Assembly (NCBI RefSeq): GCF_003790525.1
Contig: NZ_CP033635.1
Strand: one strand, 5' to 3'
Length of the DNA stretch: 64,000 nucleotides
Source: Escherichia coli
GTDB lineage: Bacteria > Pseudomonadota > Gammaproteobacteria > Enterobacterales > Enterobacteriaceae
Shown: in pieces, positions 1-62,761 of the stretch
How the letters are laid out: each line of letters begins with the position of its first letter
How positions within the stretch are numbered: the stretch's first letter is position 1
Notes under the pieces: generated by a model
The model's database searches: none
Told to the model about the DNA's origin: nothing
What the model saw: the letters and a program-made list of their open reading frames with translations, nothing else
Position numbers and translations under genes: made by a program

Positions 1-3000
1 GCTCAACCCGCAGCCCATCGCCAACCGCAGCTTTTGCGCGCAAGGTCTGGCCGGGCGTTCGCTGGTGGCCTGGCCGCAGATAGATACACAACAAACCATT
101 CCACTGCTTTACCTGCTGACCTCGACCGGTTATCCCTATGAGGGGACGGTGGCGCTGGCTGAACAGAAAGTGACGCTGAACATCGCGCCCGCACAGGGCG
201 ATTTAATTTCGGTGAGCGCCAGTGGTTATAACGAAACGATCGCGGCGGCAAAAACCACCGTTGGTGGCACTATCACGCTGACCGTCACCACCAAAGATTG
301 TCAGGGCAACGTCGCGGGTAATATTCCGTTTATTATCAAACGTAAAGATGCCCAAAACCGTCAGGGCGCGGTGAATAATACCGCGCCGGTGGTGCTGGGG
401 AGTACCGAGTTAACGACGACGGCAACCGAGTATCGTGGCACATCGGATGCCAACGGTACGGCAACCATCACGGTGACCCAACCTAACGGCCCCGGCGTCA
501 AAACGCCGCTGGTGGCGAGTATTTCCGGCATTGCGCAAACCAGCGAAACGGCGGTGATTTTTACCGTACTTACCAGCCCGGACGTGGCGCAGGCCACGAT
601 GTGGGGCCATATGGCGGAAACGGTTGAGGCACACGGCTACACGTTCAGCAGGCCAAAACTGGCGGCGGAAGTCAGCAATGAAAATGCCACGGTCGTCGAT
701 CACAACGAAACCTGGTCCACTTTCACCTGGAGCGGGGCAGACAGCCATTGCACCGTGCTGCCGGGCATGCGCCATTTCGGCGCACTGGCGACGGTGATTC
801 CCTCCACGGTACAGACTGTCCTTGGCTGGCCGATGCAGGATGATTATTACTGGACATCGCTGGCGGGCACTACCGGGCAGCACCATGCAGCGGATGTCTC
901 TAACCGTGCTGAAGCGCAAAAGCCGGATAGCACCACGTTTCTTGTAAGCTGCGTGGACAAACCCGCGCCTGACGTCGAACCGAAAATCGTCCTTACGCCA
1001 GAAAACTATGATGATACGGCACAGGCGATGAAAGCGAAGGTGGGTGAGGATGCCACGATGCGTCTGACGATCACCGACAATAAAAACAACGATCAACCGC
1101 TGGCGTATTATTACTTCTCGCTGCATCTGGATGACGGCGTTAACCGTAAGAATCAAACCGACTCCGCCTGGGAAGCCCATCCGGTGCAGATTACTGGCGG
1201 CAGTAATTTTCGCCAGGTCGACGCACATACCTATGAAGGCATGACCGACGCCAACGGCCAGGCTTCGCTCACCCTGAGCCAGCCCGGCGGCGCGGGGGTG
1301 AAAACCCATATCACGGCGAAAATGCGCAGCGATTTTAACGCCACGGATGCCAAAGATGTGATTTTTACCGTAATCACCAGCCCGGACAGCGACAAAGCGC
1401 GGATGTGGGGCCATATGCGCGGCATTATTGAGTCCGGCAGTCTGTATAAACGCCCGTTGCTGGCGGATGAAACCGAGCATGAACTGGGAACAGTGCGGGA
1501 AAACAACGAAGACTGGGCGTTGTACGATCAAAACACCAGTATGCAGGCGGAATGCGGGGTGGGTCATATACCGCGTCAGAGCTCACTGGAAAGCCTGTTT
1601 TCAGCCCATCCCGGTAACGCGATTGGCACTGAGTATGGCTGGCCTACCGCACAACAGAGCTACCTAAGCGCGGTGGAGCAAGAAACGCATTCATCGGTGA
1701 ATCTGGGGAACGGGAGCGTCGACAGCTATTCCGGCTTTAAGCAGAATTACCTCTCCTGTTCGGGTAATGAGATGGTAGCGAATGTTGAAGTCAGCACCGA
1801 TCATGATGTGTCTGTTGGCACCCAAGCGCAAGCCAAAGTGGGTGACACCATCGTAATGACCGTGCGTACGATTAACGCGCTAAATAATTCCCCGGTACCC
1901 TTTAGCGCATTCACCATTACCAAAGGTATGGGATATAACCGAGCGGGACAGGTGAGCGGGTTTGATGACCCGAGTAGCGGCTCAATCACGATGGATAACT
2001 CGCAATATGGTACATCACAGCCATCGATGGTTTATGCGGGAACAACCGATGTCCGGGGCGTGGCGACGGTCGAGATTAAGCAACCACAGGGCGTCGGGCT
2101 AAAAACGGTGCTGAGCGTAACACCGGTAAATTCCTACCTGCCGAATACCGTTAACTACAGCGTTATTTTTACTACCCCAACCAGCCCGGACGTTTCCGGC
2201 GCGCAGATGTGGGGCCATATGGATGAAACGATTACCGTTGATTCATCAACCTTTACCCGGCCTAGGCTGGCGGCGGAAATCGCCAGCCCGGACGGAACCC
2301 TGACTGAAAATAACGAAATCTGGGCGCGCGTGAGCCAGGCCAATACGTCCAGTACCAGCAAAGGCGGCTGCGGCACCAATATGCTGCCGCGTCGCTCCCA
2401 GCTAAGCGCGTTGTATAGCGCCAACAGTGGTAATGCAGTGCAAACGACGCACGGCTGGCCAACGCAGCGTCAGCCCTACTGGAGCAGCTCTCCGGCGGAT
2501 GTGACGCCGCACTTTTTCACGATAGCGCTGAACGATGGCGCACAAGCTATCGGCGGCGATACGCCGGTTTACGTCAGTTGCCTGACGACGGCGAACAAAC
2601 CTGCCAGCAGCATTACGCTGGAGGTGGTTGATAAAGCGCAATGGAATGCCGGGAATAACGCGGCAACGCTGAAAAAAGGCGAAACGCTACAGGTTAAGGT
2701 GACGGTAAAAGATGCACAGGGCAACGCGTTAGCGGATATGCCATTTACCCTCAGTCGCGGTGATGGCTATACCCGTAGCGGCGAAAAACATATTGCCGGT
2801 AGCGGCGATGCGCTGGTGGCGCCGGTGGTGGTCAATGGCGGGCTGGCCGATGAAACAACGTTGAATGACACCGCAACGGTGTATACCGCCATGACCGGCA
2901 GTGACGGCAGCAAAATTCTTAATATTACCCGTCCGGATACCCACGGCACCAAAACGGCGCTGACGGCAACGCTTTACTCCGATGCGACGAAAAAAGACAG

Positions 3001-6000
3001 CCTGGACACGATCTTTACGGTGGTTACCAGCCCGGATAGCAGCCAGGCGAAAATGTGGGGGCATATGCCGGAAACGGTGACGGCTGAGGACGGTACGGTC
3101 TTTAAACGCCCGCGGTTACTGAAGGAACTGAGCAGTCAGACTGGGCGAACATCAACGCTTGAAGACAACGAAAACTGGGCGTTGTTTAACATTAATTATG
3201 CGAGCTCTTCCACGACGTATAGTGGCTGTGGAACCAACTATATTCCGACTCAGGCCGGTCTGACGTCACTGTTTGCTAATAATGCGGGCAACACCATGAA
3301 AACCGTGCAGGGCTGGCCGGTGGCAACGCGCTATTTGTCCAACACGTCCGACAATGGCAGCATGGAGCAGCGTAACTACAAGGCGGTCGATCTCAGCAAT
3401 GGCACGAGTGCGGCAGTGTCATCAACGGCGCTGCAACTGCTGACCTGTCAGACTACACCGGTAACCACGGTGAGCCAAATCCTGCTGGAAGCGGCAGATC
3501 CGGCGACGCTGGATACCACCTATAACGTGGTAAAAGCGAAAAAAGGCGAAGAATCCGTGGTGCGCGTCACCACCAAAGATGCACAAGGCAACCTGGTGGG
3601 CAATACGGCATTTATCCTGACGCGTGCCAACAGCGTGAGTCGGGCTAATGCATCAGCGACGATGAGCGTGGGCTCGTTGACGGTGACGGATGCCTGGGGC
3701 AATACGCGAAATAATTTCCAGTCGACAAGTGAAACCATTTACGGCGTGACCGGTGCCGACGGGTCAACGACATTGACCCTGAAACAGGATAACAGTACCG
3801 GGTTAAGAACCGATCTCACGGCAAAACTGGATACGTCCAGCAGCGTCAAGGCAACGCTACCGGTGGTCTTTACCGTCGTGACCAGCCCGGATTCGCCAAA
3901 AGCGAATTTTTGGGGACATATGGCCGAAACGGTGGCGGCCTCCGATGGTTCAGTCTATAAACGCCCACTGTTGCTGGCAGAGCTGGCCAACACTGGCGGG
4001 CGACAAATCAGTTCAGAGAACGGGGAAAGCTGGGTACGATTCACCTGGAATCAGTCGACAGATCCTTCTGTAAGCGGCTGCGGCGTTGCGTATATGCCAA
4101 CGTTGGCAGGCCTGCAAGCGTTGTATGACGCTAATAGTGGTAATGCAATGAGTACGGTACAGGGATGGCCGGTAAAAGCGACCTATCTCACCAATACCCC
4201 AAGTGACACGCAAACGGGGAGCCGTTACTACAATGTGGTGCAACTGGATTCTGGCGCAGCCTCGCAAATCACGACGAACACGGGTGTACTGCAAACCTGC
4301 CGTACAACGCCGTTGACGGCTGCCAGCCAGATTACGCTGGAGGCCGCGGATCCTGCGCAATTTGTCAGCATTGACAGCACGCTTAGCGCTGTCAAAGTGC
4401 AGAAAGGCGATAGCGTGCCGATCCGCATTTCGACTAAAGATGCGCAGGGCAATTTCGTCGGCAATACGCCGTTTGCCCTGAAACACGCGAACTCGATCAA
4501 TCGTCAAAATGTGTCGTCATCGCAGAAAGTGTCGGTCACGACGGAGGTGGGTACGACGGTGGATACCAGTGCAACAACCACCCTGTATGGCGTAACCGGG
4601 CCAGACGGAACCACCACGATGACGCTCCGACAGGATGCGTCCACCGGGTTAAGAACCGACTTTTATGCCCTGTTGAACGATACCGGCGTGTCGTCGGACA
4701 CCTTGCCGGTGATCTTTACCGTCATCACCAGCCCGGATACGCCGCTGGCGGCCAACTGGGGCCATATGGCGGAAACCTTTACCAGTAGCGAAGGCGTCAC
4801 CTTCAAGCGGCCTTCCCTCAAAGCTGAACTCTCTGGCGGTACGGCCATAACGGTCAATAATGAAGTCTGGTCGCGCCTGACAGCGGCGGAGAAAGTGGAT
4901 GCCAGCAAGGCCGGGTGTGATGAGACGTATCAACCGCTGGTGAATGACATGCAGGGGTTGTATGCGGATTACCCTAACGGCCAGTTAGGATCGGTGCTCG
5001 GCTTGCCGACGTCTGCCGGGTATTGGTGGGCCTACGACATGATGATGGTTTCTGGCAACTGGACTAATCAGGCATTTTCACCTGTTAATGGTCAGTTGAT
5101 GCAGGCATCGTCCAGCTATACGGCGATCGTGATGTGTCTGGTAGAACCACATACGGAAGCAGCCACAATAGAGCTTACTTCAACGGCGCAGGACGCAGCA
5201 AAATCGGCCAGTAATGGTGGACGACCGAGCGCCGTAGCGAAGAAAGGCGAGACGATTCCGTTGACGGTGACCGTGCGTGATAGCGCCGGGAACCCGATGC
5301 CATATGCTGAGTTTACCCTCACGCGTGAAACGACGCTGGATCGCTCGAAAGCAACCGTTAACACGAGTGCGGACGACCTTACCGTAACGGCATTGGTACC
5401 CGCGAATACAAATAGTGTGTTGGCAGCAAGTGGAGCAAAACTGATCGGCACGACGGGCAGCGATGGCAAAGCGACCTTTGAGGTGAGTCAGAATGCGACG
5501 ACCGGGCTGGCGACGCCGTTAACCGTGACGCTGGCGCGTGATACGACGAAAGCCGCCACGCTGGATGTTATCTATACGGTGATCACCAGCCCGGATTCGC
5601 CGAGTGCGAAATTCTGGGGGCATATGCCGGACACCTTTACCAGCTCGACGGGCGTCACCTTCAAACGACCGCTGCTGAAAGCAGAAACCAGCTCAGGCTC
5701 ATCGATTAGCTCTAACGGCGAAGTTTGGTCATATATGAGCAACGCGCAAAATTTAACATCGACAGATTGCCCGCTCGAAAATCAACCGCGCAGTAATGAG
5801 CTGTTGGATTTGTATAGTGATCACCCGAACGGCACGCTAATGACCGACCTGGGGTTACCCGTATATGCAGGTAACTGGTGGGCCTATGATATGGTCATGC
5901 TGAGTGGAACGTCGTGGACTTATCAACTCATCAGCCTGAAAGACGGAACCATTACGCAGAAGGGGACAACCAGTGCGTTGATGCTTTGCCTGGCACAGCC

Positions 6001-7684
6001 GCATCCGGCCGGCGTCAGCGTAACATTGACGTCATCCGCACAGGATGACGCCAGAACCACCAGCAATGGCGGCCGTCCCAGCGCGTCAGCGAAAAAAGGT
6101 AACTCAATACCGATTGTGGTAACGGTAAAAGATCGTGATGGCAACCCGTTGGCGGGCGAAGCGGTGACGCTCAAACGTGATTCAGCGTTGAGCCGTTCAG
6201 GAACAATCGTGGGGACGCCAGCGAATGAAATAAAGTTGACGGAACTGACGCCCGTGTCGGCGACATTCCCGCTGGTTTCAAATGGTACACAATGGCTTGG
6301 TTTCACCGGTAGCGATGGTACGGCGACATTCAATGTTGAACAGCCTGATACTGTCGGCCTGGCAATCCCCTTTAACGCCATCCTGGCCCGTGACACGGCA
6401 AAGGTATCTACTCTGGATCTGATTTTTACCGTCCTCACCAGCCCGGATGCCGCATTAGCAACTTACTGGGGCCATATGCCGGATACCGTCACGGCGGAAA
6501 ACGGTGCTGTCTTTGAGCGCCCTAAACTGTGGAAAGAGCTGCCGTCGACATCCGGGGTAAGTCAGATAACGAATAGCAATGAAGCCTGGCCAGTGTTTAA
6601 CGCAACGCAGAGGGCTGACAGCAATCTCAGCCCTTGTGAAGCGGCGCGTCGACCATTGAGCGATGATTTAGAAGCGCTCTATACACGTTATCCAGGAAAC
6701 ACGATTACCGCGCAAATTGGCTGGCCTACGCAGTATGCATGGTGGGCGGTGGATAACTGGGAAGGGGGCAGTAATCCGCAGGCCGTCAGCCTGGTAAATG
6801 GTTCGAGAGGCCAATATAATCCCGCTCATCAGGCCTGCCTGGTTAACCCGCGTGCGAGCGTTTCCAGCGTCACGCTGACATCAACGGCGCTGGATGACGC
6901 CACACAGGCGGCGACGGTGAAAAAAGGCGACGCCGCGCCCATTGTCGTTACCGTAAAAGACAGCGCCGGGAAGCCGGTGCCGAATATCGCTTTTATCCTA
7001 AAACGCGGTGAGGCCGTGCCGCGTAACAGCGGGGCGACGCTGTATGGCGATGTGGATGCGATGGACGATTTGACTGTGCAACCTTCATCCGGTGCGGCAG
7101 TCACGTTGGCTGACAGTGGAAATACCATCGACGGAGTCACGGGAGCGGACGGTACGGCAAGCTTTACCGTTCGTCAGGATAATACGCCAGGATATAAAAC
7201 GCCGTTGACGGTGACGCTGACGGATAACGCCACCATAACGGCGACGCTGGACACGATTTTCACCGTGCCGACCAGCCCGAATGTCGCCACGGCGTATTTC
7301 TGGGGTCATATGGCGGATACCGCCACGGTAAGTGGCAAGACGCTGCATCGCCCGCTATTAAAATCGGAGTTGCCGTCAGGCGCTACCGCAGCAGCAACGC
7401 CTGATGTAAATAATGAAACCTGGGCACTGGCGCATGTTATGGATTCCTCTAAATGGGATGTCGCGCAGCAGTGTGGCAGTATGAATAACGTGCCGAGCAG
7501 TGCCGAATTACAAACATTACACTCCGGCTTTAGCACATTGGGATGGCCGTCCTCGATAAGCTTCCCGTATTTATCTACTGATAAGGCTGGGTCGTTCTAT
7601 TGTGGTGTTGATGAAGGCTCTGGCAGTCTCAACTGTGGCATTCAGCCTGCGAAAACGCCGGGGTTTGCAACCTGCTTCCAGTAA
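1..7684 (+). CDS. giant surface adhesin, 5'-truncated by window edge; tandem Big_1-like (invasin/intimin-type) repeats; RatA/RatB/SinH-like
   Basis: Reading frame is open from position 2 to stop at 7684 (ORF track starts at a GTG at 65). About 9 repeats of ~280 aa each end in a TSPD-x5-WGHM motif (e.g. [35 protein letters not shown]). Lies next to xseA, where such adhesin loci occur in enterobacteria. Confidence 0.6.
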
Positions 7685-7715
7685 CCTTATCCACCTTGTC
7701 AATATGAGGTTCCGA

Positions 7716-9135
<1,420 letters not shown>

Positions 9136-9266
9136 TTATTCAGTCGATAGTAACCCGCCCTCCGGGGATAGCAAGCATTTTTTGCAAAAAGGGGTAGATG
9201 CAATCGGTTACGCTCTGTATAATGCCGCGGCAATATTTATTAACCACTCTGGTCGAGATATTGCCC

Positions 9267-10733
9267 ATGCTACGTATCGCTAAAGAAGCTCTGACGTTTG
9301 ACGACGTTCTCCTCGTTCCTGCTCATTCTACCGTTCTGCCGAATACTGCTGACCTCAGCACCCAGCTGACGAAAACTATTCGTCTGAATATCCCTATGCT
9401 TTCCGCAGCAATGGATACCGTAACGGAAGCGCGCCTGGCTATTGCTCTGGCTCAGGAAGGCGGTATCGGCTTTATCCACAAAAACATGTCCATTGAACGC
9501 CAGGCAGAAGAAGTTCGCCGTGTGAAAAAACACGAATCTGGCGTGGTAACTGATCCGCAGACCGTGCTGCCGACAACCACCCTGCGTGAAGTGAAAGAAC
9601 TGACCGAGCGTAACGGCTTTGCGGGCTACCCGGTGGTTACCGAAGAAAACGAACTGGTCGGCATCATCACCGGTCGTGACGTGCGTTTTGTGACCGATCT
9701 GAATCAACCGGTTAGCGTTTACATGACGCCGAAAGAGCGTCTGGTAACCGTGCGTGAAGGCGAAGCCCGTGAAGTGGTGCTGGCAAAAATGCACGAAAAA
9801 CGCGTTGAAAAGGCGCTGGTGGTTGATGACGAATTCCACCTGATCGGCATGATCACTGTGAAGGACTTCCAGAAAGCGGAACGTAAACCGAACGCGTGTA
9901 AAGACGAACAAGGCCGTCTGCGTGTAGGTGCAGCGGTTGGCGCGGGTGCGGGTAACGAAGAGCGTGTTGATGCGCTGGTTGCCGCAGGCGTTGACGTTCT
10001 GCTGATCGACTCCTCTCACGGTCACTCTGAAGGTGTTCTGCAGCGTATCCGTGAAACTCGCGCTAAATATCCTGACCTGCAAATCATCGGCGGCAACGTG
10101 GCAACAGCAGCAGGTGCCCGCGCGCTGGCAGAAGCCGGTTGCAGTGCCGTTAAAGTGGGTATCGGCCCTGGTTCTATTTGTACTACCCGCATTGTTACTG
10201 GCGTCGGTGTTCCGCAGATCACCGCCGTTGCTGACGCAGTAGAAGCCCTGGAAGGCACCGGAATTCCGGTTATCGCTGACGGTGGTATTCGTTTCTCCGG
10301 CGACATCGCCAAAGCTATCGCCGCTGGCGCAAGCGCGGTAATGGTGGGTTCCATGCTGGCAGGTACTGAAGAATCTCCGGGTGAAATTGAACTCTACCAG
10401 GGCCGTTCTTACAAATCTTACCGTGGTATGGGTTCCCTGGGCGCGATGTCCAAAGGTTCTTCTGACCGTTACTTCCAGAGCGACAACGCTGCCGACAAAC
10501 TGGTGCCGGAAGGTATCGAAGGTCGCGTGGCCTATAAAGGTCGCCTGAAAGAGATCATTCACCAGCAGATGGGCGGCCTGCGCTCCTGTATGGGCCTGAC
10601 CGGCTGTGGTACTATCGACGAACTGCGTACTAAAGCGGAGTTTGTACGTATCAGCGGTGCGGGCATTCAGGAAAGCCACGTTCACGACGTGACCATTACT
10701 AAAGAGTCCCCGAACTACCGTCTGGGCTCCTGA
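9267..10733 (+). CDS. guaB: IMP dehydrogenase
   Basis: Translation from ATG 9267 [27 protein letters not shown]..., 488 aa, CBS pair and catalytic GSICTTR loop; ORF track's upstream start at 9198 rejected. Confidence 0.95.
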
Positions 10734-10801
10734 TTCTCTTCGCCCGACTTCATGTCGGGCGATTTATATTATCTGTTTCACTTGCCTCGGAATAAGCGTC
10801 A

Positions 10802-12379
10802 ATGACGGAAAACATTCATAAGCATAGCATCCTCATTCTGGACTTCGGTTCCCAGTATACTCAACTGGTTGCGCGCCGCGTGCGTGAGCTGGGCGTTTAC
10901 TGCGAACTGTGGGCGTGGGATGTGACAGAAGCACAAATTCGTGACTTCAATCCAAGCGGCATTATTCTTTCCGGCGGCCCGGAAAGCACCACCGAAGAAA
11001 ACAGCCCGCGTGCGCCGCAGTATGTCTTTGAAGCAGGCGTACCGGTATTCGGCGTTTGCTATGGCATGCAGACCATGGCGATGCAGTTGGGTGGTCACGT
11101 TGAAGCCTCTAACGAACGTGAATTTGGCTACGCGCAGGTTGAAGTCGTAAACGACAGCGCACTAGTTCGCGGTATCGAAGATGCGCTGACCGCAGACGGT
11201 AAACCTCTGCTCGATGTCTGGATGAGCCACGGCGATAAAGTTACCGCTATCCCGTCCGACTTCGTCACCGTAGCCAGCACCGAAAGCTGCCCGTTTGCCA
11301 TTATGGCTAACGAAGAAAAACGCTTCTATGGCGTACAGTTCCACCCGGAAGTGACTCACACCCGCCAGGGTATGCGCATGCTGGAGCGTTTTGTGCGTGA
11401 TATCTGCCAGTGTGAAGCCCTGTGGACGCCAGCGAAAATTATCGACGATGCTGTAGCCCGTATCCGCGAGCAGGTAGGCGACGATAAAGTCATCCTCGGC
11501 CTCTCTGGTGGCGTGGATTCCTCCGTGACCGCAATGCTGCTGCACCGCGCTATCGGTAAAAATCTGACTTGCGTATTCGTCGATAACGGCCTGCTGCGTC
11601 TCAACGAAGCAGAGCAGGTTCTGGATATGTTTGGCGATCACTTTGGTCTGAACATTGTTCACGTTCCGGCAGAAGATCGCTTCCTGTCAGCGTTGGCCGG
11701 CGAAAACGATCCGGAAGCAAAACGTAAAATCATCGGGCGCGTTTTCGTTGAAGTATTCGATGAAGAAGCACTGAAACTGGAAGACGTGAAGTGGCTGGCG
11801 CAGGGCACTATCTACCCTGACGTTATTGAATCTGCCGCATCTGCAACCGGTAAAGCACACGTCATCAAATCTCACCACAACGTGGGCGGCCTGCCGAAAG
11901 AGATGAAGATGGGCCTGGTTGAACCGCTGAAAGAGCTGTTCAAAGACGAAGTGCGTAAGATTGGTCTGGAGCTGGGCCTGCCGTACGACATGCTGTACCG
12001 TCACCCGTTCCCGGGACCAGGCCTTGGCGTTCGTGTTCTGGGTGAAGTGAAGAAAGAGTATTGTGACCTGCTGCGCCGTGCTGACGCCATCTTCATTGAA
12101 GAACTGCGTAAAGCGGACCTGTACGACAAAGTCAGCCAGGCGTTCACCGTCTTCCTGCCGGTACGTTCCGTTGGCGTAATGGGCGATGGTCGTAAGTATG
12201 ACTGGGTTGTCTCTCTGCGTGCTGTCGAAACCATCGACTTTATGACCGCACACTGGGCGCATCTGCCGTACGATTTCCTCGGTCGCGTTTCCAACCGCAT
12301 TATCAATGAAGTGAACGGTATTTCCCGCGTGGTGTATGACATCAGCGGCAAGCCGCCAGCTACCATTGAGTGGGAATGA
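10802..12379 (+). CDS. guaA: GMP synthase (glutamine-hydrolysing)
   Basis: 525-aa translation [40 protein letters not shown]... ends IEWE; immediately downstream of guaB. Confidence 0.95.
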
Positions 12380-12381
12380 TT
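12365..12381. repeat. attL core, 17-bp direct repeat ATTGAGTGGGAATGATT spanning the guaA stop codon
   Basis: Exact copy at 51948-51964; encodes the last guaA codons (I E W E stop). Confidence 0.8.
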
Positions 12382-12427
12382 AACAGCTAACTCATAGCAA
12401 CTCATTCCTATTCAGACACTAATTTAA

Positions 12428-24772: not shown

Positions 24773-24813
24773 GAGTAGATTATGCATGATGAATTTGATG
24801 GGTTTTGAATACT

Positions 24814-24839
24814 GCCGCCAACTATGGCGGCTTTATTTT
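24814..24839 (+). terminator. rho-independent terminator at end of early/replication region
   Basis: gccgcca acta tggcggc hairpin then tttatttt. Confidence 0.55.
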
Positions 24840-24850
24840 GCATGGTACTA

Positions 24851-24865
24851 TTACCACAACGGTAA
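24851..24865. promoter_or_regulatory. TTACC-N5-GGTAA operator-like site (perfect) upstream of terminase small subunit
   Basis: TTACC ACAAC GGTAA; degenerate second copy at 24869-24883. Confidence 0.5.
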
Positions 24866-24882
24866 CTATTACCACGGTGGTT

Positions 24883-25479
24883 ATGATGCCTGCTGAACCT
24901 AAAACCTATAAACGCAAATCAACGCAATTTAAGCCGCTCACAGCAATGCAGGAGGCTTATTGCCAGTCATACATCAAAACGCCTGAAAACCAGACTCAGG
25001 CAGCGATTAACGCAGGATTCTCCCCAAATACAGCGGCAGTTAAAGCCAGTGTCATGATGCGCGATGAACGCATTCAAAAACGGATTGCCGAGTTGATGGA
25101 GGAGCGCAACAAACGAATGCGCGTCAGTGCTGATTACGTTCTCATGCGCCTGGTGGAGATCGACCAGATGGACGTGATCGATATCCTCAACGACGATGGG
25201 AGCCTTAAACCAATCCGTGAGTGGCCGAAAATCTGGCGCACTACGCTTAGTGGCTTTGATCTGTCATCGACCATCATGAACATGAACGAGGATTCGATAG
25301 AGACAATCCTCAAAAAAATTAAATGGCCTGACAAGGTGAAGAACCTCGAACTGATTGGTAAGCACGTCGACGTTAACGCGTTCAAAGAACGTCTGGATGT
25401 TAATGTGAATGTGACAATTGCTGATCGCATAGCAGCAGCCAGGAAGCGACTCAAAGAACGTCAGGATGGTAATCAGTGA
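24883..25479 (+). CDS. terminase small subunit
   Basis: Start MMPAEPKTYKRKSTQFKPLTAMQEAYCQSYIKT...; directly precedes terminase large subunit. Confidence 0.6.
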   Translation: MMPAEPKTYKRKSTQFKPLTAMQEAYCQSYIKTPENQTQAAINAGFSPNTAAVKASVMMRDERIQKRIAELMEERNKRMRVSADYVLMRLVEIDQMDVIDILNDDGSLKPIREWPKIWRTTLSGFDLSSTIMNMNEDSIETILKKIKWPDKVKNLELIGKHVDVNAFKERLDVNVNVTIADRIAAARKRLKERQDGNQ

Positions 25480-26950
25480 CAGATACAGCGTTATCTCCTG
25501 AAGAGCAGTTGATCGAGGATATTGCAGGGTTCACTCACGATCCGCTTGGCTATGCCCTCTATGCGTTCCCGTGGGGGAAGAGGGTACTGAACTGGCACAT
25601 GCCACCGGCCCACGTCAGTGGCAGGCTGATGCGTTCCGAGAGATACGTGATCACCTGCAGAATCCAGAGACGCGCTATCAGCCGCTTATGCTGGCACGCG
25701 CTTCTGGTCACGGTATTGGTAAATCCGCATTCATCTCAATGCTGATCAACTGGGGCATGTCCACTTGCGAGGATTGTAAGGTCGTGGTGACCGCCAACAC
25801 CGACAACCAGCTACGAACTAAGACCTGGCCGGAAATTATCAAGTGGTCGAACCTTGCTATCACGAAAGACTGGTTTACCTGTACCGCTACCGCGATGTAC
25901 AGCAATGATCCTGGGCACGACAAGCGGTGGCGAGCTGACGCAATCCCTTGGTCTGAGCACAACACTGAGGCATTCGCCGGACTACACAACGAGCGTAAAC
26001 GCATCATCGTGGTATTTGATGAAGCGTCGAACATTGCGGATCTGGTGTGGGAAGTTGCCGAGGGTGCGCTAACGGACGAAGACACTGAGATTATCTGGGT
26101 GGCGTTCGGAAACCCTACACGTAACACCGGACGTTTCCGCGAATGTTTCCGCAAATATAAACACCGCTGGAAAACTGCGCAGATTGACAGCCGAACGGTG
26201 GAAGGCACTAACAAACAGCAGTTGCAGAAATGGGTTGATGACTACGGGGAAGACAGCGACTTCGTTAAAATCCGTGTGCGCGGCATATTCCCTGATGCAT
26301 CTGAATTGCAGTTTATCCCTACCGGTCTTACTGATGAGGCAATGAAACGGGTGGTGACCGCTGCGCAGGTGGCGCATGCTCCGGTGATAATCGGTGTTGA
26401 CCCGGCATATTCAGGCGTTGATGACGCGGTGATATACCTGCGGCAGGGGCTACACAGTAAGGTGCTGTGGACTGGCAACAAGACTACCGACGATCTGATT
26501 ATGGCGAAGCGTATCGCTGACTTTGAAGACCAGTATCAGGCTGACGCGGTGTTCATCGACTTCGGTTACGGAACCGGTTTGAAGTCAATCGGTGATGGCT
26601 GGGGACGTACATGGCAACTTGTTCCGTTCGGTGGCGCGTCTACTGACCCGCAGATGCTCAACAAGCGTGGGGAGATGTTCAACTCATGCAAGACATGGCT
26701 GAGGCTCGGCGGCATGCTGGATGACCAGGAAACTGCAGACGACCTGTCGGCGGCAGAGTACAAAGTTCGTGTGGACGGTAAAATCGTTATCGAACCGAAG
26801 GAAGATATCAAAGAGCGGCTTGGGCGTTCGCCTGGTAAAGGCGATGCGCTACTGCTGACGTTTGCTTTCCCGGTGTCAAAGCGCCTGCGACTTCCCGGGC
26901 AGCAGAACCAGCAAGGCAAGGCGCTTACCGAGTACGATCCATATGCTTAG
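25476..26950 (+). CDS. terminase large subunit; frame changes (-1) in a G5 run at 25573-25577, so either frameshifted or it starts at GTG 25571
   Basis: Walker A ASGHGIGKS in frame of 25571-26950; upstream 32 codons (GTG 25476, overlapping terS stop, SD AGGA) are in the other frame. Confidence 0.7.
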
Positions 26951-27765
26951 TCTTTATTTTTATCCTCGAAACCTGATAATCCAGATAGAACACCAAAGTT
27001 ATTAAAAACGTTTGGCTTACCAGATTTTAATCCGGATAAGTTGTGTTGCTCCAAAAAGTTACTAATTGTTTGGCCGTTGCCAAGTGCAAGGCTTTTTATT
27101 TGAGATTTTTCAGGGTATTTGAGTTTGTATTCGTCGAAATCATTTTGGAGGGTCTTATATGCCTCATTCATTCTTCCAAGAGTTTCCGATATCTCTTTTA
27201 ATGAATGATTTAGAGCTGCTAACTGAGCACTGGCGGATCTCAATTCGTCATCTTTAGCTTTCAACTCGGCAGTCAATTCACCCATACTATTCTTTGATCG
27301 AATAATCTCTTCTTTCATCTCTTGGATGTCTTTTTCCGCGCCAGTCTTAACTTTGTCGTATGTAACATCTTTTTTAGCCAATAACCTCTGCAGTCTTGTT
27401 TCACGCTGGATTTTTCTTGCCTTCAGGTGATTTTCGATTGAGTCATTATTATCAAGAGGCTTTGCTTGCCATACGTTAATGATATTGTTTACCCATGGTA
27501 ATAGGCAGCAGATAGCAATTACAGATAAGCATGGATAAAACATAACAGTTTTCCATGTGCTGTTATCTGAGATATATGAAATTTTATCTATTATGTTTGA
27601 TTTGCTAAAAAATAGATAAAGAATTGATTTCCAGTTGAAGGCGCACCAGGACATAACAAAAGCACCAAGCACAGGGTTTTTGGCTCGATTCACGGCAGTA
27701 TTGGCAGTAGATAAAAACAGCTCTTTGAACGATTCAAACATGCTAATTACCTTGAAGTTTTTCAT
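26947..27765 (-). CDS. membrane-anchored coiled-coil protein, antisense to the packaging/structural genes (candidate accessory or exclusion protein)
   Basis: Start MKNFKVISMFESFKE; two hydrophobic segments then long coiled-coil; AT-rich; own upstream palindromic motif. Confidence 0.5.
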   Translation of the reverse strand: MKNFKVISMFESFKELFLSTANTAVNRAKNPVLGAFVMSWCAFNWKSILYLFFSKSNIIDKISYISDNSTWKTVMFYPCLSVIAICCLLPWVNNIINVWQAKPLDNNDSIENHLKARKIQRETRLQRLLAKKDVTYDKVKTGAEKDIQEMKEEIIRSKNSMGELTAELKAKDDELRSASAQLAALNHSLKEISETLGRMNEAYKTLQNDFDEYKLKYPEKSQIKSLALGNGQTISNFLEQHNLSGLKSGKPNVFNNFGVLSGLSGFEDKNKD

Positions 27766-27769
27766 GATT

Positions 27770-27784
27770 ATACCTTTAAGGTAA
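27770..27784. promoter_or_regulatory. TTACC-N5-GGTAA-like site (ATACC TTTAA GGTAA) immediately upstream of minus-strand membrane protein gene
   Basis: Core palindrome TACCTTTAAGGTA. Confidence 0.45.
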
Positions 27785-27901
27785 TTTGCGGTCATCAAGC
27801 AAAAAAATGCCCGGCGAACCGGGCGAACTGGAAGCAATGAGTTATGCCTTCCGTGGCTGTACGGGTTTACAGCATGAAGTCATCGCAATGGCGTCCTGCT
27901 G

Positions 27902-27987: not shown

Positions 27988-28064
27988 TGGCGCGGCATGC
28001 AGGATTCGAACCTGCGACCAACCGCTTAGAAGGCGGTTGCTCTGTCCAACTGAGCTAATGCCAC
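27988..28064 (-). tRNA. tRNA-Arg (anticodon UCU), phage-encoded
   Basis: 77-nt cloverleaf folded by hand: acceptor GUGGCAU/AUGCCGC, D-stem GCUC/GAGC, anticodon stem ACCGC/GCGGU with loop CUUCUAA, T-arm GCAGG-UUCGAAU-CCUGC, encoded CCA. Confidence 0.85.
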
Positions 28065-28401: not shown

Positions 28402-28480
28402 TAATTAGTGCAGTATCTACGATAAATAAATCACATGTGGTTAAATTGGTAATAATTTAATTGCGTACGGAGTCATTGAT

Positions 28481-28687
28481 ATGTGCATGGGTAGCTCACC
28501 ATCAGTGCCTGCAACACCAGAAGTTCAGGCAGCACCACAGGAGCAGGATGCCGCCGTTGTTGATGCCCGCGACGAAGAAACTCGTCGCCGTCGCGCTGCT
28601 GCTGGTCGTAGTTCTACGCTGCTTACCGGTTCTCAGGGCGACACATCAACCGCTAATACCAGCGGTAAAACGCTGCTTGGTCAGTAA
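28481..28687 (+). CDS. small protein preceding portal gene (hypothetical)
   Basis: Same SD context (GGAGTCATTGA-ATG) as portal gene. Confidence 0.35.
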   Translation: MCMGSSPSVPATPEVQAAPQEQDAAVVDARDEETRRRRAAAGRSSTLLTGSQGDTSTANTSGKTLLGQ

Positions 28688-53440: not shown

Positions 53441-53632
53441 CTAACGTTGTACCGGTGATTCGACGGAGAGTGTGGATTGCTGAGCTTCTTTTTTGCTCTG
53501 ATGGTGCTGCCATGCACCGACGGACGAGTAGATAAAACGGCCAAAGAAGAAGATAAAGCTGATGAGCAGTACGATACGGGTCATGCGACTGTTAAATCGG
53601 TGTCGTTTTCGCATACTGGTTGCCTGACTCAC
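53441..53632 (-). CDS. yfgG: small membrane protein YfgG
   Basis: 63 aa with one TM segment; conserved position between yfgH and pdeF. Confidence 0.6.
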   Translation of the reverse strand: MSQATSMRKRHRFNSRMTRIVLLISFIFFFGRFIYSSVGAWQHHQSKKEAQQSTLSVESPVQR

Positions 53633-53983
53633 AAAAGGTTCCTTGAAGTATGTCCCACGCTGTGGACAGTACTTACATTAAGGCACAACAGGACAAAATG
53701 GTCAATTCTTCGTTATGTAAAAAAGCGTCAGTGGATACATATTTTAATGTTATGGAAGTTAATTTAATTATTTACAATGATGATGTAATAATGATGAATT
53801 AACATGATAAACGTAATAATTCATTAATCAGGGTTATTTTGTTTGATATATATCAATTGGAACTTTCATATGACACTTAGAATCAATGCTCTCTATAGTG
53901 ATGAATAATCATCATTCGAAGTCAGGTGGGATGCCTGTCTGAATACACCTCCTTCAGGATGTGGGGGATTCTGCTGAGCATCT

Positions 53984-56227
53984 ATGAAACTGAATGCAAC
54001 TTATATAAAAATACGTGATAAATGGTGGGGGCTTCCGCTGTTCCTGCCTTCTTTAATCTTGCCCATTTTCGCCCACATTAATACTTTCGCGCATATTTCT
54101 TCCGGTGAGGTTTTTCTCTTTTATCTGCCTCTGGCTCTGATGATCAGCATGATGATGTTTTTCAGCTGGGCGGCATTGCCAGGGATCGCCTTAGGGATTT
54201 TTGTCCGCAAATATGCAGAGCTGGGTTTTTACGAAACGCTCTCATTAACGGCTAATTTTATTATCATTATCATTCTCTGTTGGGGCGGTTACAGGGTCTT
54301 TACTCCCCGGCGTAACAACGTTTCACATGGTGATACCCGTTTAATTTCCCAGCGTATATTCTGGCAGATTGTGTTTCCTGCAACGCTGTTTCTGATACTT
54401 TTCCAGTTTGCTGCGTTTGTAGGATTACTGGCGAGCAGAGAAAATCTGGTCGGCGTCATGCCTTTTAACCTCGGGACCTTAATCAATTATCAGGCCTTAC
54501 TGGTGGGCAATCTGATTGGTGTCCCGCTGTGCTACTTCATCATTCGTGTAGTGCGAAATCCGTTTTATTTACGCAGTTATTATTCGCAATTAAAACAGCA
54601 GGTTGATGTCAAAGTCACCAAAAAAGAGTTCGCACTCTGGCTACTGGCATTAGGTGCTTTACTGCTGCTGTTATGCATGCCGTTAAATGAAAAAAGCACA
54701 ATTTTTAGCACCAACTATACCTTGTCATTATTGCTGCCCCTGATGATGTGGGGAGCGATGCGCTATGGTTATAAGCTGATTTCGCTGCTCTGGGCGGTCG
54801 TGTTGATGATCAGCATCCACAGCTATCAAAATTACATTCCCATTTATCCTGGCTATACCACGCAACTGACCATAACCTCCTCCAGTTATCTGGTATTCTC
54901 TTTTATTGTCAATTATATGGCTGTACTGGCAACCCGTCAGCGAGCGGTAGTCAGACGCATTCAGCGGCTTGCGTATGTGGACCCGGTGGTTCATCTGCCA
55001 AATGTTCGCGCCCTGAATCGCGCGTTGCGTGATGCCCCCTGGTCTGCGCTTTGTTATTTACGCATCCCTGGCATGGAAATGCTGGTTAAGAACTATGGCA
55101 TCATGCTACGGATTCAATACAAGCAAAAACTTTCTCACTGGCTGTCACCCTTGCTGGAACCGGGTGAAGATGTTTATCAGCTTTCGGGTAACGATCTCGC
55201 GCTGCGACTGAATACAGAATCGCACCAGGAGCGCATTACCGAACTGGATAGCCATCTCAAGCAATTTCGTTTCTTTTGGGATGGAATGCCGATGCAACCG
55301 CAGATTGGCGTCAGTTACTGCTATGTGCGCTCGCCAGTGAATCATATCTACCTGCTGCTGGGAGAGCTAAATACGGTCGCCGAGCTTTCCATCGTGACCA
55401 ACGCCCCGGAAAATATGCAGCGTCGCGGGGCAATGTATTTGCAACGCGAATTGAAAGATAAAGTCGCGATGATGAATCGGCTACAGCAGGCGCTGGAACA
55501 CAACCATTTTTTCCTGATGGCCCAGCCGATTACCGGTATGCGTGGTGATGTCTACCATGAAATTCTTCTGCGCATGAAAGGTGAGAATGATGAACTGATC
55601 AGCCCCGACAGCTTCTTGCCGGTCGCGCACGAATTTGGTTTATCGTCGAGTATCGACATGTGGGTCATTGAGCATACGCTGCAATTTATGGCTGAAAACA
55701 GAGCGAAGATGCCCGCTCACCGTTTTGCGATTAATCTGTCGCCAACCTCGGTATGTCAGGCGCGTTTTCCCGTTGAAGTCAGTCAGCTGCTGGCTAAATA
55801 TCAAATTGAAGCGTGGCAACTTATTTTTGAAGTCACCGAAAGTAATGCTCTGACCAATGTTAAGCAGGCGCAAATCACCTTGCAGCATCTTCAGGAATTA
55901 GGCTGCCAGATTGCGATTGATGATTTCGGCACCGGCTATGCCAGCTATGCGCGGCTTAAAAATGTGAATGCCGATTTGCTTAAAATTGACGGCAGTTTTA
56001 TCCGCAATATTGTGTCAAATAGTCTGGATTATCAGATAGTGGCGTCGATTTGCCACCTGGCGCGAATGAAGAAAATGCGGGTAGTGGCAGAGTACGTTGA
56101 AAACGAAGAGATCCGCGAGGCGGTGTTCTCTTTGGGGATCGATTATATGCAGGGTTATCTTATTGGTAAGCCGCAACCGTTAATTGATACGCTGAATGAA
56201 ATCGAACCCATTCGCGAAAGTGCCTGA
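53984..56227 (+). CDS. pdeF: cyclic-di-GMP phosphodiesterase PdeF (MASE1-degenerate GGDEF-EAL)
   Basis: 747 aa; N-terminal multi-TM domain and C-terminal EAL region (QPITGMRGDVYHEILLRM...IDDFGTGYAS). Confidence 0.85.
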   Translation: MKLNATYIKIRDKWWGLPLFLPSLILPIFAHINTFAHISSGEVFLFYLPLALMISMMMFFSWAALPGIALGIFVRKYAELGFYETLSLTANFIIIIILCWGGYRVFTPRRNNVSHGDTRLISQRIFWQIVFPATLFLILFQFAAFVGLLASRENLVGVMPFNLGTLINYQALLVGNLIGVPLCYFIIRVVRNPFYLRSYYSQLKQQVDVKVTKKEFALWLLALGALLLLLCMPLNEKSTIFSTNYTLSLLLPLMMWGAMRYGYKLISLLWAVVLMISIHSYQNYIPIYPGYTTQLTITSSSYLVFSFIVNYMAVLATRQRAVVRRIQRLAYVDPVVHLPNVRALNRALRDAPWSALCYLRIPGMEMLVKNYGIMLRIQYKQKLSHWLSPLLEPGEDVYQLSGNDLALRLNTESHQERITELDSHLKQFRFFWDGMPMQPQIGVSYCYVRSPVNHIYLLLGELNTVAELSIVTNAPENMQRRGAMYLQRELKDKVAMMNRLQQALEHNHFFLMAQPITGMRGDVYHEILLRMKGENDELISPDSFLPVAHEFGLSSSIDMWVIEHTLQFMAENRAKMPAHRFAINLSPTSVCQARFPVEVSQLLAKYQIEAWQLIFEVTESNALTNVKQAQITLQHLQELGCQIAIDDFGTGYASYARLKNVNADLLKIDGSFIRNIVSNSLDYQIVASICHLARMKKMRVVAEYVENEEIREAVFSLGIDYMQGYLIGKPQPLIDTLNEIEPIRESA

Positions 56228-56232
56228 ATAAT

Positions 56233-56259
56233 GCGGGCCGACATTTCTCGTCGGCCCGC
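56233..56259. terminator. hairpin between convergent pdeF and ppx
   Basis: gcgggccgac atttc tcgtcggcccgc inverted repeat; no strong T-run. Confidence 0.4.
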
Positions 56260-56265
56260 AAAGCA

Positions 56266-59878
<3,613 letters not shown>

Positions 59879-60049
59879 TACCACTTTTACTCCGTTTTAT
59901 TCACGGGACACTGCCTGGATATTATGGCGAGCAATATTGGCAGATGTCCAACTATGCCAGAAAAGGGGGAAAAAAACTGCTGGAGCTTGCGATTTACAGG
60001 TGAATTGAAAAACGCCAGCGGCAGAGCTGGCGCTTTAACTACGGGGGCA

Positions 60050-60687
60050 TTACTCGTCGGCAGCGTAGCCCTGCGGCGGCAGACGTTGACCATCCAGCCA
60101 CGCGGCGTTTTCGTGCATTTTCAGACGACCATCGGCAAACCAGCTAATCACCAGTGGATAAATAGCGTGTTCCTGGGTTTGCACGCGGGCGGTGATGTCA
60201 TCTTCCGTATCACCAGCAAATACCGGGACTTTCGCCTGTAAAATAACCGGGCCACCGTCCAGTTCATCGGTGACGAAATGCACCGATGTACCGTGCTCCT
60301 CATCGCCATTTTCCAGCGCCTGACGATGGGTGTGTAATCCGGGATATTTCGGCAGCAGAGAAGGGTGAATGTTCAGCAAACGCCCGGCATAATGGGAGAC
60401 AAACGCCGGGCTGAGAATGCGCATAAAACCAGCCAGCACGACCACATCGGGTGCGTACATGTCGATTTCATGAATCAACTCCCGGTCATAGGCTTCACGA
60501 CTGTCAAACGCGCTGGTGATGAGCGTATGTGTTGCAATACCCGCCTGGCGGGCGCGTTCAAGGCCGAACGCGTCGGCCTTATTGCTGAAAACTGCCCGTA
60601 CGGTGCCTTTAATTTTGTTGGTTTTGCAGGCGTCAATAATTGCCTGCAAATTACTTCCGTTGCCGGAAATAAGCACCACAATATTCA

Positions 60688-60688
<1 letters not shown>
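60050..60688 (-). CDS. purN: phosphoribosylglycinamide formyltransferase
   Basis: 212 aa; MNIVVLISGNGSNLQAIIDA; ATG overlaps purM stop by 1 nt. Confidence 0.9.
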
Positions 60689-61743
<1,055 letters not shown>

Positions 61744-61788
61744 TTACTTGCGGTAGAAAAATAAAATTCGGCGCAATTCTAACAGGGA

Positions 61789-61804
61789 AAGCAAACGTTT
61801 GCGA
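61789..61804. promoter_or_regulatory. PurR operator (PUR box) in purMN/upp divergent control region
   Basis: AAGCAAACGTTTGCGA contains palindrome GCAAACGTTTGC. Confidence 0.6.
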
Positions 61805-62049
61805 GACTGCTTTACACAACCTTTTTGTACGTCTTTTCCCCAGGCGCGCGGCAAAAGAATACTTGTACCAGGGTAAAGGTTAGTTTTCGGATGGAATAAT
61901 CTTCTTCCATAACCATTTGAATATAAAATAACTTTATCTCAAACCGTTATCATTTTGACTAAAGTCAACGAAAATAATATTGCCGCCTTGAAGAAAGGAG
62001 GTATAATCCGTCGATTTTTTTTGTGGCTGCCCCTCAAAGGAGAAAGAGT

Positions 62050-62676
62050 ATGAAGATCGTGGAAGTCAAACACCCACTCGTCAAACACAAGCTGGGACTG
62101 ATGCGTGAGCAAGATATCAGCACCAAGCGCTTTCGCGAACTCGCTTCCGAAGTGGGTAGCCTGCTGACTTACGAAGCGACCGCCGACCTCGAAACGGAAA
62201 AAGTCACTATCGAAGGCTGGAACGGCCCGGTAGAAATCGACCAGATCAAAGGTAAGAAAATTACCGTTGTGCCAATTCTGCGTGCCGGTCTGGGGATGAT
62301 GGACGGTGTGCTGGAAAACGTTCCGAGCGCGCGCATCAGCGTCGTCGGTATGTACCGTAATGAAGAAACGCTGGAGCCGGTACCGTACTTCCAGAAACTG
62401 GTTTCTAACATCGATGAGCGTATGGCGCTGATCGTTGACCCAATGCTGGCAACCGGTGGTTCCGTTATCGCGACCATCGACCTGCTGAAAAAAGCGGGCT
62501 GCAGCAGCATCAAAGTTCTGGTGCTGGTAGCTGCGCCAGAAGGTATCGCTGCGCTGGAAAAAGCGCACCCGGACGTCGAACTGTATACTGCATCGATTGA
62601 CCAGGGACTGAACGAGCACGGATACATTATTCCGGGCCTCGGCGATGCCGGTGACAAAATCTTTGGTACGAAATAA
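62050..62676 (+). CDS. upp: uracil phosphoribosyltransferase
   Basis: Start [22 protein letters not shown]; 208 aa. Confidence 0.9.
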
Positions 62677-62692
62677 AGAATAAAAATAATTA

Positions 62693-62725
62693 AAGCCGAC
62701 TTTAAGAGTCGGCTTTTTTTTGAGT
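62693..62725 (+). terminator. rho-independent terminator after upp
   Basis: agccgact ttaag agtcggct hairpin plus T8. Confidence 0.6.
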
Positions 62726-62761
62726 AAAGCGCCTATAACACATAATACAGAGGATAATACT

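What the first reader, a model, noticed from the sequence alone, without database searches (positions are those of the whole stretch)
25476..25600. Terminase large subunit start is split across two frames at a G5 homopolymer
A GTG at 25476 overlaps the terS stop, has an SD, and encodes 32 terminase-like N-terminal residues (MTDTALSPEEQLIEDIAGFTHDPLGYALYAFPWG). The Walker A frame (GEEGTELAHATGPRQWQ...ASGHGIGKS) continues in the -1 frame from 25571, where there is no SD. One extra G in the run at 25573-25577 would fuse them. This is either a real inactivating indel (defective prophage), a sequencing error, or terL genuinely starts at GTG 25571.
Basis: partly seen in the sequence, partly recalled or inferred. 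Interest (0 to 1): 0.45.

Follow-up and report, generated by a model that had tools for sequence, protein, structure and literature searches.

The report
Frameshifted prophage terminase gene (G6→G5)
The DNA-packaging motor gene (terL) of an otherwise intact epsilon15/phiV10-like prophage in E. coli has lost one G from a run of six, which splits the gene in two; this is an ordinary inactivating mutation or a leftover sequencing error, not a new mechanism.

Summary
GTG 25476 overlaps the terS stop (GTGA). It opens an 89-aa ORF whose first 34 residues are the conserved TerL N-terminus. The rest of TerL (459 aa, Walker A onward) lies in the −1 frame from 25571. The two meet at the G5 run, 25573-25577.

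Relatives settle what this is. Phages phiV10 and epsilon15 and about 99.5% of E. coli prophage copies encode one 1476-nt terL starting at the GTGA overlap, with G6 (GGGGAG in epsilon15) where the window has G5. Adding one G gives a 491-aa protein whose exact sequence is on at least 1000 public contigs.

Residues 9-35 are conserved in homologs down to 68% identity, so a genuine start at 25571 is rejected. Programmed frameshifting is also rejected: there is no conserved two-frame layout, no canonical slippery heptamer and no downstream structure.

Elsewhere the window is clean. About 60 kb is comparable to close relatives, and no other coding homopolymer differs. All other prophage genes are full length.

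The same G5 lesion recurs in other backgrounds, and RefSeq annotates it as a "frameshifted" terminase. I favour a real, recent one-base deletion (about 0.65) over a sequencing error (about 0.3). Interest is low.

The parts
24805..25479 (+). terS (terminase small subunit), intact, 224 aa. Its stop overlaps the terL start (GTGA).
   Evidence: ORF list. PHROG phrog_51, terminase small subunit, E = 2.6e-58. Same 675-nt CDS annotated in RefSeq relatives.
25463..25466 (+). Shine-Dalgarno-like AGGA, 9 nt upstream of the terL GTG start
   Evidence: Read directly from the sequence. Conserved in the E. coli relatives in alignment A1.
25476..26950 (+). terL (terminase large subunit) as a whole: 1475 nt, one base short of the 1476 nt found in relatives. 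A frameshifted pseudogene as written.
   Evidence: Relatives have a single 1476-nt CDS at this position. The repaired translation is 491 aa and matches a protein found on at least 1000 contigs.
25476..25745 (+). ORF1: the first 34 codons are the genuine TerL N-terminus, followed by 55 out-of-frame codons and a stop
   Evidence: N-terminal residues 9-35 are conserved across homologs.
25573..25577 (+). G5 homopolymer, the site of the one-base deletion (G6 in relatives, GGGGAG in epsilon15)
   Evidence: Alignment A1. BLAST gap lists against several relatives.
25571..26950 (+). ORF2: TerL residues 33-491 in the −1 frame. It holds the Walker A motif ASGHGIGKS, the Walker B motif VVFDEAS and the C-terminal nuclease domain. 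The GTG at 25571 is fortuitous and has no SD.
   Evidence: AF2 model with Foldseek hits to Sf6 gp2 and T4 gp17.

Best explanation
The window carries an epsilon15/phiV10-like (Uetakevirus) prophage inserted between guaA and yfgI of an E. coli chromosome. Its terminase large-subunit gene has lost one G from a six-G tract (codons TGG GGG GAA, W33-G34-E35).

**Consequence for translation (inferred).** Ribosomes starting at the true start, GTG 25476 (SD present, coupled to terS), read 34 correct residues. They then read 55 wrong ones and stop at 25745. The ATPase and nuclease body of TerL (25571-26950) has no ribosome-binding site of its own, so essentially no functional TerL is made.

**Consequence for the phage (inferred).** The prophage should still be able to excise, replicate, build procapsids and lyse. 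It should fail to cut and package DNA, so it would yield no, or extremely few, infectious particles. Rescue would need the tract to revert to G6, rare −1 slippage on the G run, or a co-resident phage supplying terminase.

**Age of the lesion.** It is young. Apart from the missing base the allele is identical to a very common intact allele, and every other prophage gene is full length.

**Shown versus inferred.** Shown: the one-base deletion, the ancestral G6 state, conservation of the N-terminus, and intactness of the rest of the prophage. Inferred: that the base is truly missing in the cell's DNA, and that packaging is lost.
For: - One-base gap in the G tract against phiV10, epsilon15 and E. 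coli 20AR0300, and against the closest prophage relatives L158 (99.76% over 13.4 kb) and L162 (99.61% over 20.3 kb).
- 436 of 438 complete E. coli genomes have G6. The two G5 copies are annotated as 'frameshifted' terminase.
- IMG/VR holds at least 120 G6 contigs and no frameshifted G5 copy.
- The exact repaired 491-aa sequence occurs on at least 1000 contigs.
- The N-terminus is conserved to 68% identity and modelled as two confident helices.
- The window's sequence quality looks high. 22.9 kb of host flank is 100% identical, with no gaps, to several genomes.
- About 59.9 kb is comparable to relatives and holds 216 homopolymers of 5 nt or more (55 of 6 or more, 14 of 7 or more). Within it, the terL run is the only coding homopolymer that differs.
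- The window also carries a private 11-nt intergenic deletion at 28412. That is not a typical base-calling error, so this copy has undergone real deletion events.
- G5 also occurs in otherwise clean assemblies of different terL backgrounds: L167 (a 62-kb contig from SRR19391265) and RefSeq CP148426.
Against: - No reads are available, so a single residual homopolymer under-call cannot be excluded.
- Several other datasets showing G5 are visibly noisy, with extra 1-nt homopolymer indels nearby: L008/L166, L010, L134 and L141. G6→G5 is therefore also a recurrent artefact of homopolymer-sensitive platforms.
- The lack of any further decay in terL is also what a sequencing error would look like.
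- Loss of packaging is inferred, not measured.
Confidence: 0.65

Rival explanations
1. Sequencing or assembly error. The strain really has G6 and an intact terL, and one G was under-called in the consensus.
For: - G6→G5 is the classic homopolymer compression error.
- G5 recurs in datasets that carry other 1-nt homopolymer indels nearby: L008/L166 has about 15 such deletions in 7 kb, L010 has one in the portal gene, and L134 and L141 have a split terS.
- The repaired gene is identical to a common intact allele.
- The closest clean relatives have G6.
Against: - The window shows no other homopolymer discrepancy. This holds over about 60 kb comparable to relatives, with 55 runs of 6 or more and 14 of 7 or more. 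It includes 22.9 kb of host DNA identical to several independent genomes.
- An assembly that clean is unlikely to miscall a 6-mer.
- G5 is also found in otherwise clean assemblies.
Confidence: 0.3
2. terL genuinely starts at GTG 25571 and yields a functional 459-aa terminase. The upstream 34 codons would be a separate small ORF or non-coding.
For: A GTG exists at 25571, and the 459-aa ORF keeps the Q-motif-like GPRQWQ segment, Walker A, Walker B and the nuclease domain. Gene callers do call it.
Against: - There is no SD before 25571.
- Every homolog down to 68% identity has the N-terminal segment in frame, with eight invariant residues in positions 12-33.
- phiV10 and epsilon15, both viable phages, use the upstream start.
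- With G6 the GTG at 25571 is merely the last base of the P32 codon plus the first two bases of the W33 codon (CCG TGG).
Confidence: 0.02
3. Programmed −1 ribosomal frameshift or transcriptional slippage at the G run, used to make TerL from two frames or to tune its dose.
For: Slipping of the P-site tRNA-Gly from GGG (25575-25577) to GGG (25574-25576) would re-pair perfectly and restore the exact wild-type sequence PWGEEG (from the sequence). Low-level leakiness is therefore conceivable.
Against: - The two-frame layout is not conserved: about 99.5% of copies and all characterised phages are in one frame.
- G GGG AAG is not a canonical X XXY YYZ heptamer.
- The downstream RNA folds no better than shuffled sequence, z = −0.73.
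- The G tract is interrupted in epsilon15.
Confidence: 0.03

Closest known systems
Terminase large subunit of Escherichia phage phiV10 (PhiV10p02, AAZ95895.1) and Salmonella phage epsilon15 (AAO06065.1), genus Uetakevirus
   Same: - Same position directly after terS, with a 4-nt start/stop overlap, and the same 1476-nt length once one G is restored.
- About 96% (phiV10) and 83% (epsilon15) nucleotide identity.
- The first 120 residues shown are identical to phiV10 TerL.
- Same neighbours: tRNA-Arg, portal and capsid genes.
   Different: The window's copy lacks one G of the G6 tract, so the reading frame breaks after codon 34.
RefSeq 'frameshifted' terminase pseudogenes QQK36_RS05990 (E. coli VE-V11-M, NZ_AP027978.1) and WHU39_RS10140 (E. 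coli Z1323CEC0014, NZ_CP148426.1)
   Same: The identical G5 lesion at the identical site, in phiV10-like prophages. NCBI's pipeline has already flagged both as frameshifted.
   Different: They sit on different terL nucleotide backgrounds (48 or more differences) with different neighbouring genes, so they are independent occurrences. VE-V11-M has a second indel in terL.
Sf6 gp2 and T4 gp17 large terminases (PDB 4IDH/4IFE, 3CPE)
   Same: The AF2 model of the repaired protein matches these TerL folds: Foldseek E = 2e-13 to Sf6 gp2, and nuclease domain TM 0.64. Walker A and Walker B motifs are present.
   Different: Only about 13% sequence identity. There is no significant Pfam hit (best independent E-value 0.048) and no significant PDB hit by sequence.
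Programmed −1 frameshifts in phage genes (for example lambda G/GT at G GGA AAG) and homopolymer phase-variation tracts
   Same: A G-rich run at the junction of two overlapping frames. A one-base length change switches the product on or off.
   Different: There is no conservation of the two-frame state, no canonical heptamer, no stimulatory structure, and the tract is only 6 nt and not conserved in epsilon15.

Membership tests
Phage terminase large subunit (TerL), epsilon15/phiV10 clade | N-terminal ASCE ATPase with Walker A (P-loop) and Walker B/catalytic Glu | tested here: met
   ASGHGIGKS (repaired residues 76-84) and VVFDEAS (179-185) are present, with S77-A85 and F181-S185 invariant in 19 homologs. 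PHROG phrog_2, terminase large subunit, E = 1.1e-52.
Phage terminase large subunit (TerL), epsilon15/phiV10 clade | C-terminal RNase-H-like nuclease domain and overall TerL fold | tested here: met
   AF2 model (pLDDT 72.9; C-terminal domain 80-95) matches Sf6 gp2 full length at E = 2e-13. It matches the Sf6 gp2 nuclease domain with TM 0.64 and rmsd 3.9 Å.
Phage terminase large subunit (TerL), epsilon15/phiV10 clade | Encoded immediately downstream of terS at the head of the morphogenesis module | tested here: met
   The GTGA overlap with terS, followed by tRNA-Arg, portal, protease and capsid genes, as in phiV10 and epsilon15.
Phage terminase large subunit (TerL), epsilon15/phiV10 clade | One uninterrupted reading frame of about 491 codons (a functional gene) | tested here: not met
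   The frame breaks after codon 34 through loss of one G. The locus is a TerL pseudogene as written.
Programmed −1 ribosomal frameshift site | Two-frame architecture conserved among homologs | tested here: not met
   436 of 438 complete E. coli genomes, all 14 phage records that match this junction, and at least 120 IMG/VR contigs are in one frame.
Programmed −1 ribosomal frameshift site | Canonical slippery heptamer X XXY YYZ plus a downstream stimulatory structure | tested here: not met
   The heptamer is G GGG AAG. The 95-nt downstream fold has z = −0.73 against shuffles.
Homopolymer phase-variation (contingency) locus | Conserved long tract, with ON and OFF lengths both common in populations | tested here: not met
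   The tract is only 6 nt and is interrupted in epsilon15 (GGGGAG). The OFF (G5) state is about 0.5% of copies.
Uetakevirus-like prophage (epsilon15/phiV10 type) | Gene order and nucleotide similarity to phiV10/epsilon15 across the packaging and structural modules | tested here: met
   96-97% identity to phiV10, ZX5 and phiv142-3, and 83% to epsilon15, over terS-terL. Synteny with annotated prophages in 702/18 and MS 198-1, with every structural gene at full length.

The most novel reading that the evidence does not exclude
The G6 tract in terL of phiV10-like prophages is a recurrent slipped-strand hot spot that works as a reversible 'lock'. In this reading, G5 lysogens keep an otherwise perfect prophage that cannot package. 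The prophage can return to full infectivity by a one-base reversion. It might also leak a little wild-type TerL by −1 slippage of tRNA-Gly on G GGG G. The evidence leaves this open: G5 recurs on at least 6 different terL backgrounds, and the gene shows no further decay in at least the window's allele.
Probability: 0.05. Interest if true: 0.4.

Novelty: already known. Interest (0 to 1): 0.1.

Why it matters
The practical value is for annotation. The locus should be called a single frameshifted terL pseudogene (25476-26950), not a 459-aa terminase plus an 89-aa hypothetical protein. The prophage should be scored as intact but packaging-defective, pending read-level confirmation.

It also illustrates two points:
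- A short G6 run is the weak spot of this gene across many genomes and sequencing platforms.
- Prophage 'intactness' callers that only count genes would miss the lesion.

It opens no new biological question.

Tried and rejected
1. **Start at 25571.** Rejected from the alignment of 19 homologs.

2. **Programmed frameshift.** Rejected on population data, heptamer and RNA fold.

3. **Pfam and PDB sequence searches on repaired TerL.** No significant Pfam domain and no phmmer hit in the PDB. A profile search gave only marginal hits to the Sf6 gp2 nuclease domain. The fold search was needed to confirm the TerL fold.

   - No contig identical to the window was found.
   - L143 and L144 are 99.99% identical over 12-15 kb of the tail region, but their terL region could not be retrieved.
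   - L008/L166 shares an identical terL with G5, but it is a noisy assembly and a different mosaic, so it does not confirm the base.

5. **The IMG/VR G5 hit (L013).** It is a distant homolog in which G5 is in frame (PWGKKG), not a frameshift.

6. **PADLOC on the neighbouring 272-aa ORF.** Only weak coiled-coil hits.

7. **Literature search.** Only titles and abstracts of the listed papers were seen and none was opened. Nothing in them pointed to this site.

Full report
**What is in the sequence**

terS occupies 24805-25479. Its TGA stop overlaps a GTG at 25476, and an AGGA lies 9 nt upstream of that GTG. From this GTG an 89-aa ORF runs to 25745. A second ORF of 459 aa runs from GTG 25571 to 26950 in the −1 frame, with no purine-rich SD before it. 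The two frames meet at a run of exactly five Gs, 25573-25577. Inserting one G gives a continuous 1476-nt, 491-aa ORF.

**Context**

- The host flanks (1-12400 and 53500-64000) are 100% identical, without gaps, to several E. coli chromosomes. They carry the genes xseA, guaB, guaA on one side and pdeF, ppx, ppk1, purN, purM on the other.
- Between guaA and yfgI lies a prophage of about 40 kb.
- Its terS-terL region is 96-97% identical to Escherichia phages phiV10, vB_EcoP_ZX5 and phiv142-3, and 83% identical to Salmonella phage epsilon15, genus Uetakevirus.
- Its gene order matches annotated prophages in strains 702/18 and MS 198-1.
- Every structural and lysis ORF checked against those two annotations has the length of its counterpart. 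This covers the portal, protease, capsid, injection proteins, tailspike, holins and GH19 endolysin.

**What the split is**

In phiV10, epsilon15 and the closest E. coli copy (20AR0300, 99.5% identical), terL is one 1476-nt CDS starting at the GTGA/ATGA overlap with terS. The alignment shows a single gap: the window has G5 where E. coli relatives have G6 and epsilon15 has GGGGAG.

| Collection | G6 (one frame) | G5 (frameshifted) |
|---|---|---|
| Complete E. coli genomes carrying this junction (438) | 436 | 2, both annotated by PGAP as 'terminase, frameshifted' |
| IMG/VR viral contigs | at least 120 | 0 (one exact G5 match, but it is a distant homolog in which G5 is in frame) |

The closest relatives of this particular prophage that include terL are L158 (99.76% over 13.4 kb) and L162 (99.61% over 20.3 kb). 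Both have G6. They differ from the window by only two indels: the G run and an 11-nt intergenic deletion at 28412.

**Is the upstream piece really part of TerL?**

Yes. Nineteen homologs from Escherichia, Klebsiella, Cronobacter, Serratia, Pectobacterium, Proteus, Providencia, Erwinia, Pantoea, Yersinia and Salmonella, down to 68% identity, all carry it. L12, I16, D22, P23, Y29, F31, P32 and W33 are invariant. epsilon15 keeps the peptide despite many synonymous changes. An AlphaFold model places residues 8-30 in two confident helices (pLDDT about 88-90). The whole model matches the TerL structures of Sf6 gp2 and T4 gp17.

**Programmed frameshift?**

No.
- The two-frame layout is not conserved.
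- G GGG AAG is not a canonical slippery heptamer.
- The downstream RNA folds no better than shuffles, z = −0.73.

P-site slippage of tRNA-Gly on the G run would restore the wild-type peptide, so trace leakiness is conceivable. That is inference only.

**Real mutation or sequencing error?**

*For a real mutation:*
- About 59.9 kb of the window is comparable to close relatives and holds 216 homopolymers of 5 nt or more (55 of 6 or more, 14 of 7 or more). Within it, the terL run is the only coding homopolymer that differs.
- The host flanks have no indel at all.
- The window also has a private 11-nt deletion, which is not a base-calling artefact.
- The G5 allele occurs in otherwise clean assemblies of other terL backgrounds, namely L167 (a 62-kb contig) and CP148426.

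*For an error:*
- Several other G5 datasets carry extra 1-nt homopolymer indels: L008/L166, L010, L134 and L141.
- The repaired allele is identical to one found on at least 1000 contigs.

I put a real, recent deletion at about 0.65 and an error at about 0.3.

**Recurrence**

- The exact 459-aa ORF is on 5 contigs whose terL DNA differs from the window by 0-47 nt.
- Six further 459-aa variants exist. One of them was traced to 8 different sequencing runs, and all 8 carry G5.
- G5 also occurs on a CCT-TGG background, where the fortuitous start becomes TTG.

The G6 run is thus a hot spot, biological, technical or both.

**Consequence (inferred)**

Translation from the true start ends after 34 correct and 55 wrong residues. 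The ATPase-nuclease body lacks its own ribosome-binding site and lacks a conserved N-terminal element. The prophage should therefore be able to excise, replicate, assemble procapsids and lyse, but not package DNA. Reversion, slippage or a helper phage could rescue it.

**Verdict**

This is an ordinary frameshifted terL in an otherwise intact phiV10/epsilon15-like prophage, already flagged as such in equivalent RefSeq records. Interest is low.

Noticed in passing
window 28405-28420 (intergenic, between tRNA-Arg 27988-28064 and the 68-aa gene at 28481): The window lacks 11 nt (GTTAAATGTCA) that every compared relative has, including the closest ones (L008, L158, L162). It is a private deletion of unknown consequence, in the region upstream of the small gene that precedes the portal gene.
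   Followed up: partly
Protein hits P0003-P0024 and P0048; not in the window: Many close TerL homologs (96-98% identical over 83% of the query) are 813-814 aa and carry a LAGLIDADG_3 domain (PF14528). This looks like an intein or homing-endonuclease insertion in terL of phiV10-like prophages.
   Followed up: no
window 26947-27837 (− strand): A 272-296-aa ORF that the RefSeq record of a relative (strain E22) labels a coiled-coil domain protein. It matches phrog_4780 (unknown function) and is convergent with terL, overlapping its end by 4 nt. The slot is variable: relatives carry a Gp49-family gene, a 139-aa gene or this one. PADLOC gives only weak hits to SMC-like proteins (DndD, JetC) over residues about 90-260, probably driven by the coiled coil.
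   Followed up: partly
window 27988-28064 (− strand): A prophage-borne tRNA-Arg (anticodon TCT), conserved in the relatives between the terL-adjacent moron (accessory-gene) slot and the portal module.
   Followed up: no
window, whole: There is no G or C run of 6 or more anywhere in the 64 kb. G5 runs are strongly strand-biased: 24 G5 against 3 C5 on the + strand.
   Followed up: no
window 65-7684 (+ strand): A 2539-aa ORF annotated in relatives as 'adhesion domain-containing protein'. It lies next to xseA, guaB and guaA and is present in full in only about 750 of 5426 complete E. coli genomes.
   Followed up: no
L008/L166 (NCBI GCA_045572415.1, contig JBIGNF010000001.1): This public assembly carries about one 1-nt homopolymer deletion per 500 nt in the prophage region, which splits terS, the portal gene and other genes. 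It is a reminder that some public records showing the G5 allele are unreliable at homopolymers.
   Followed up: partly
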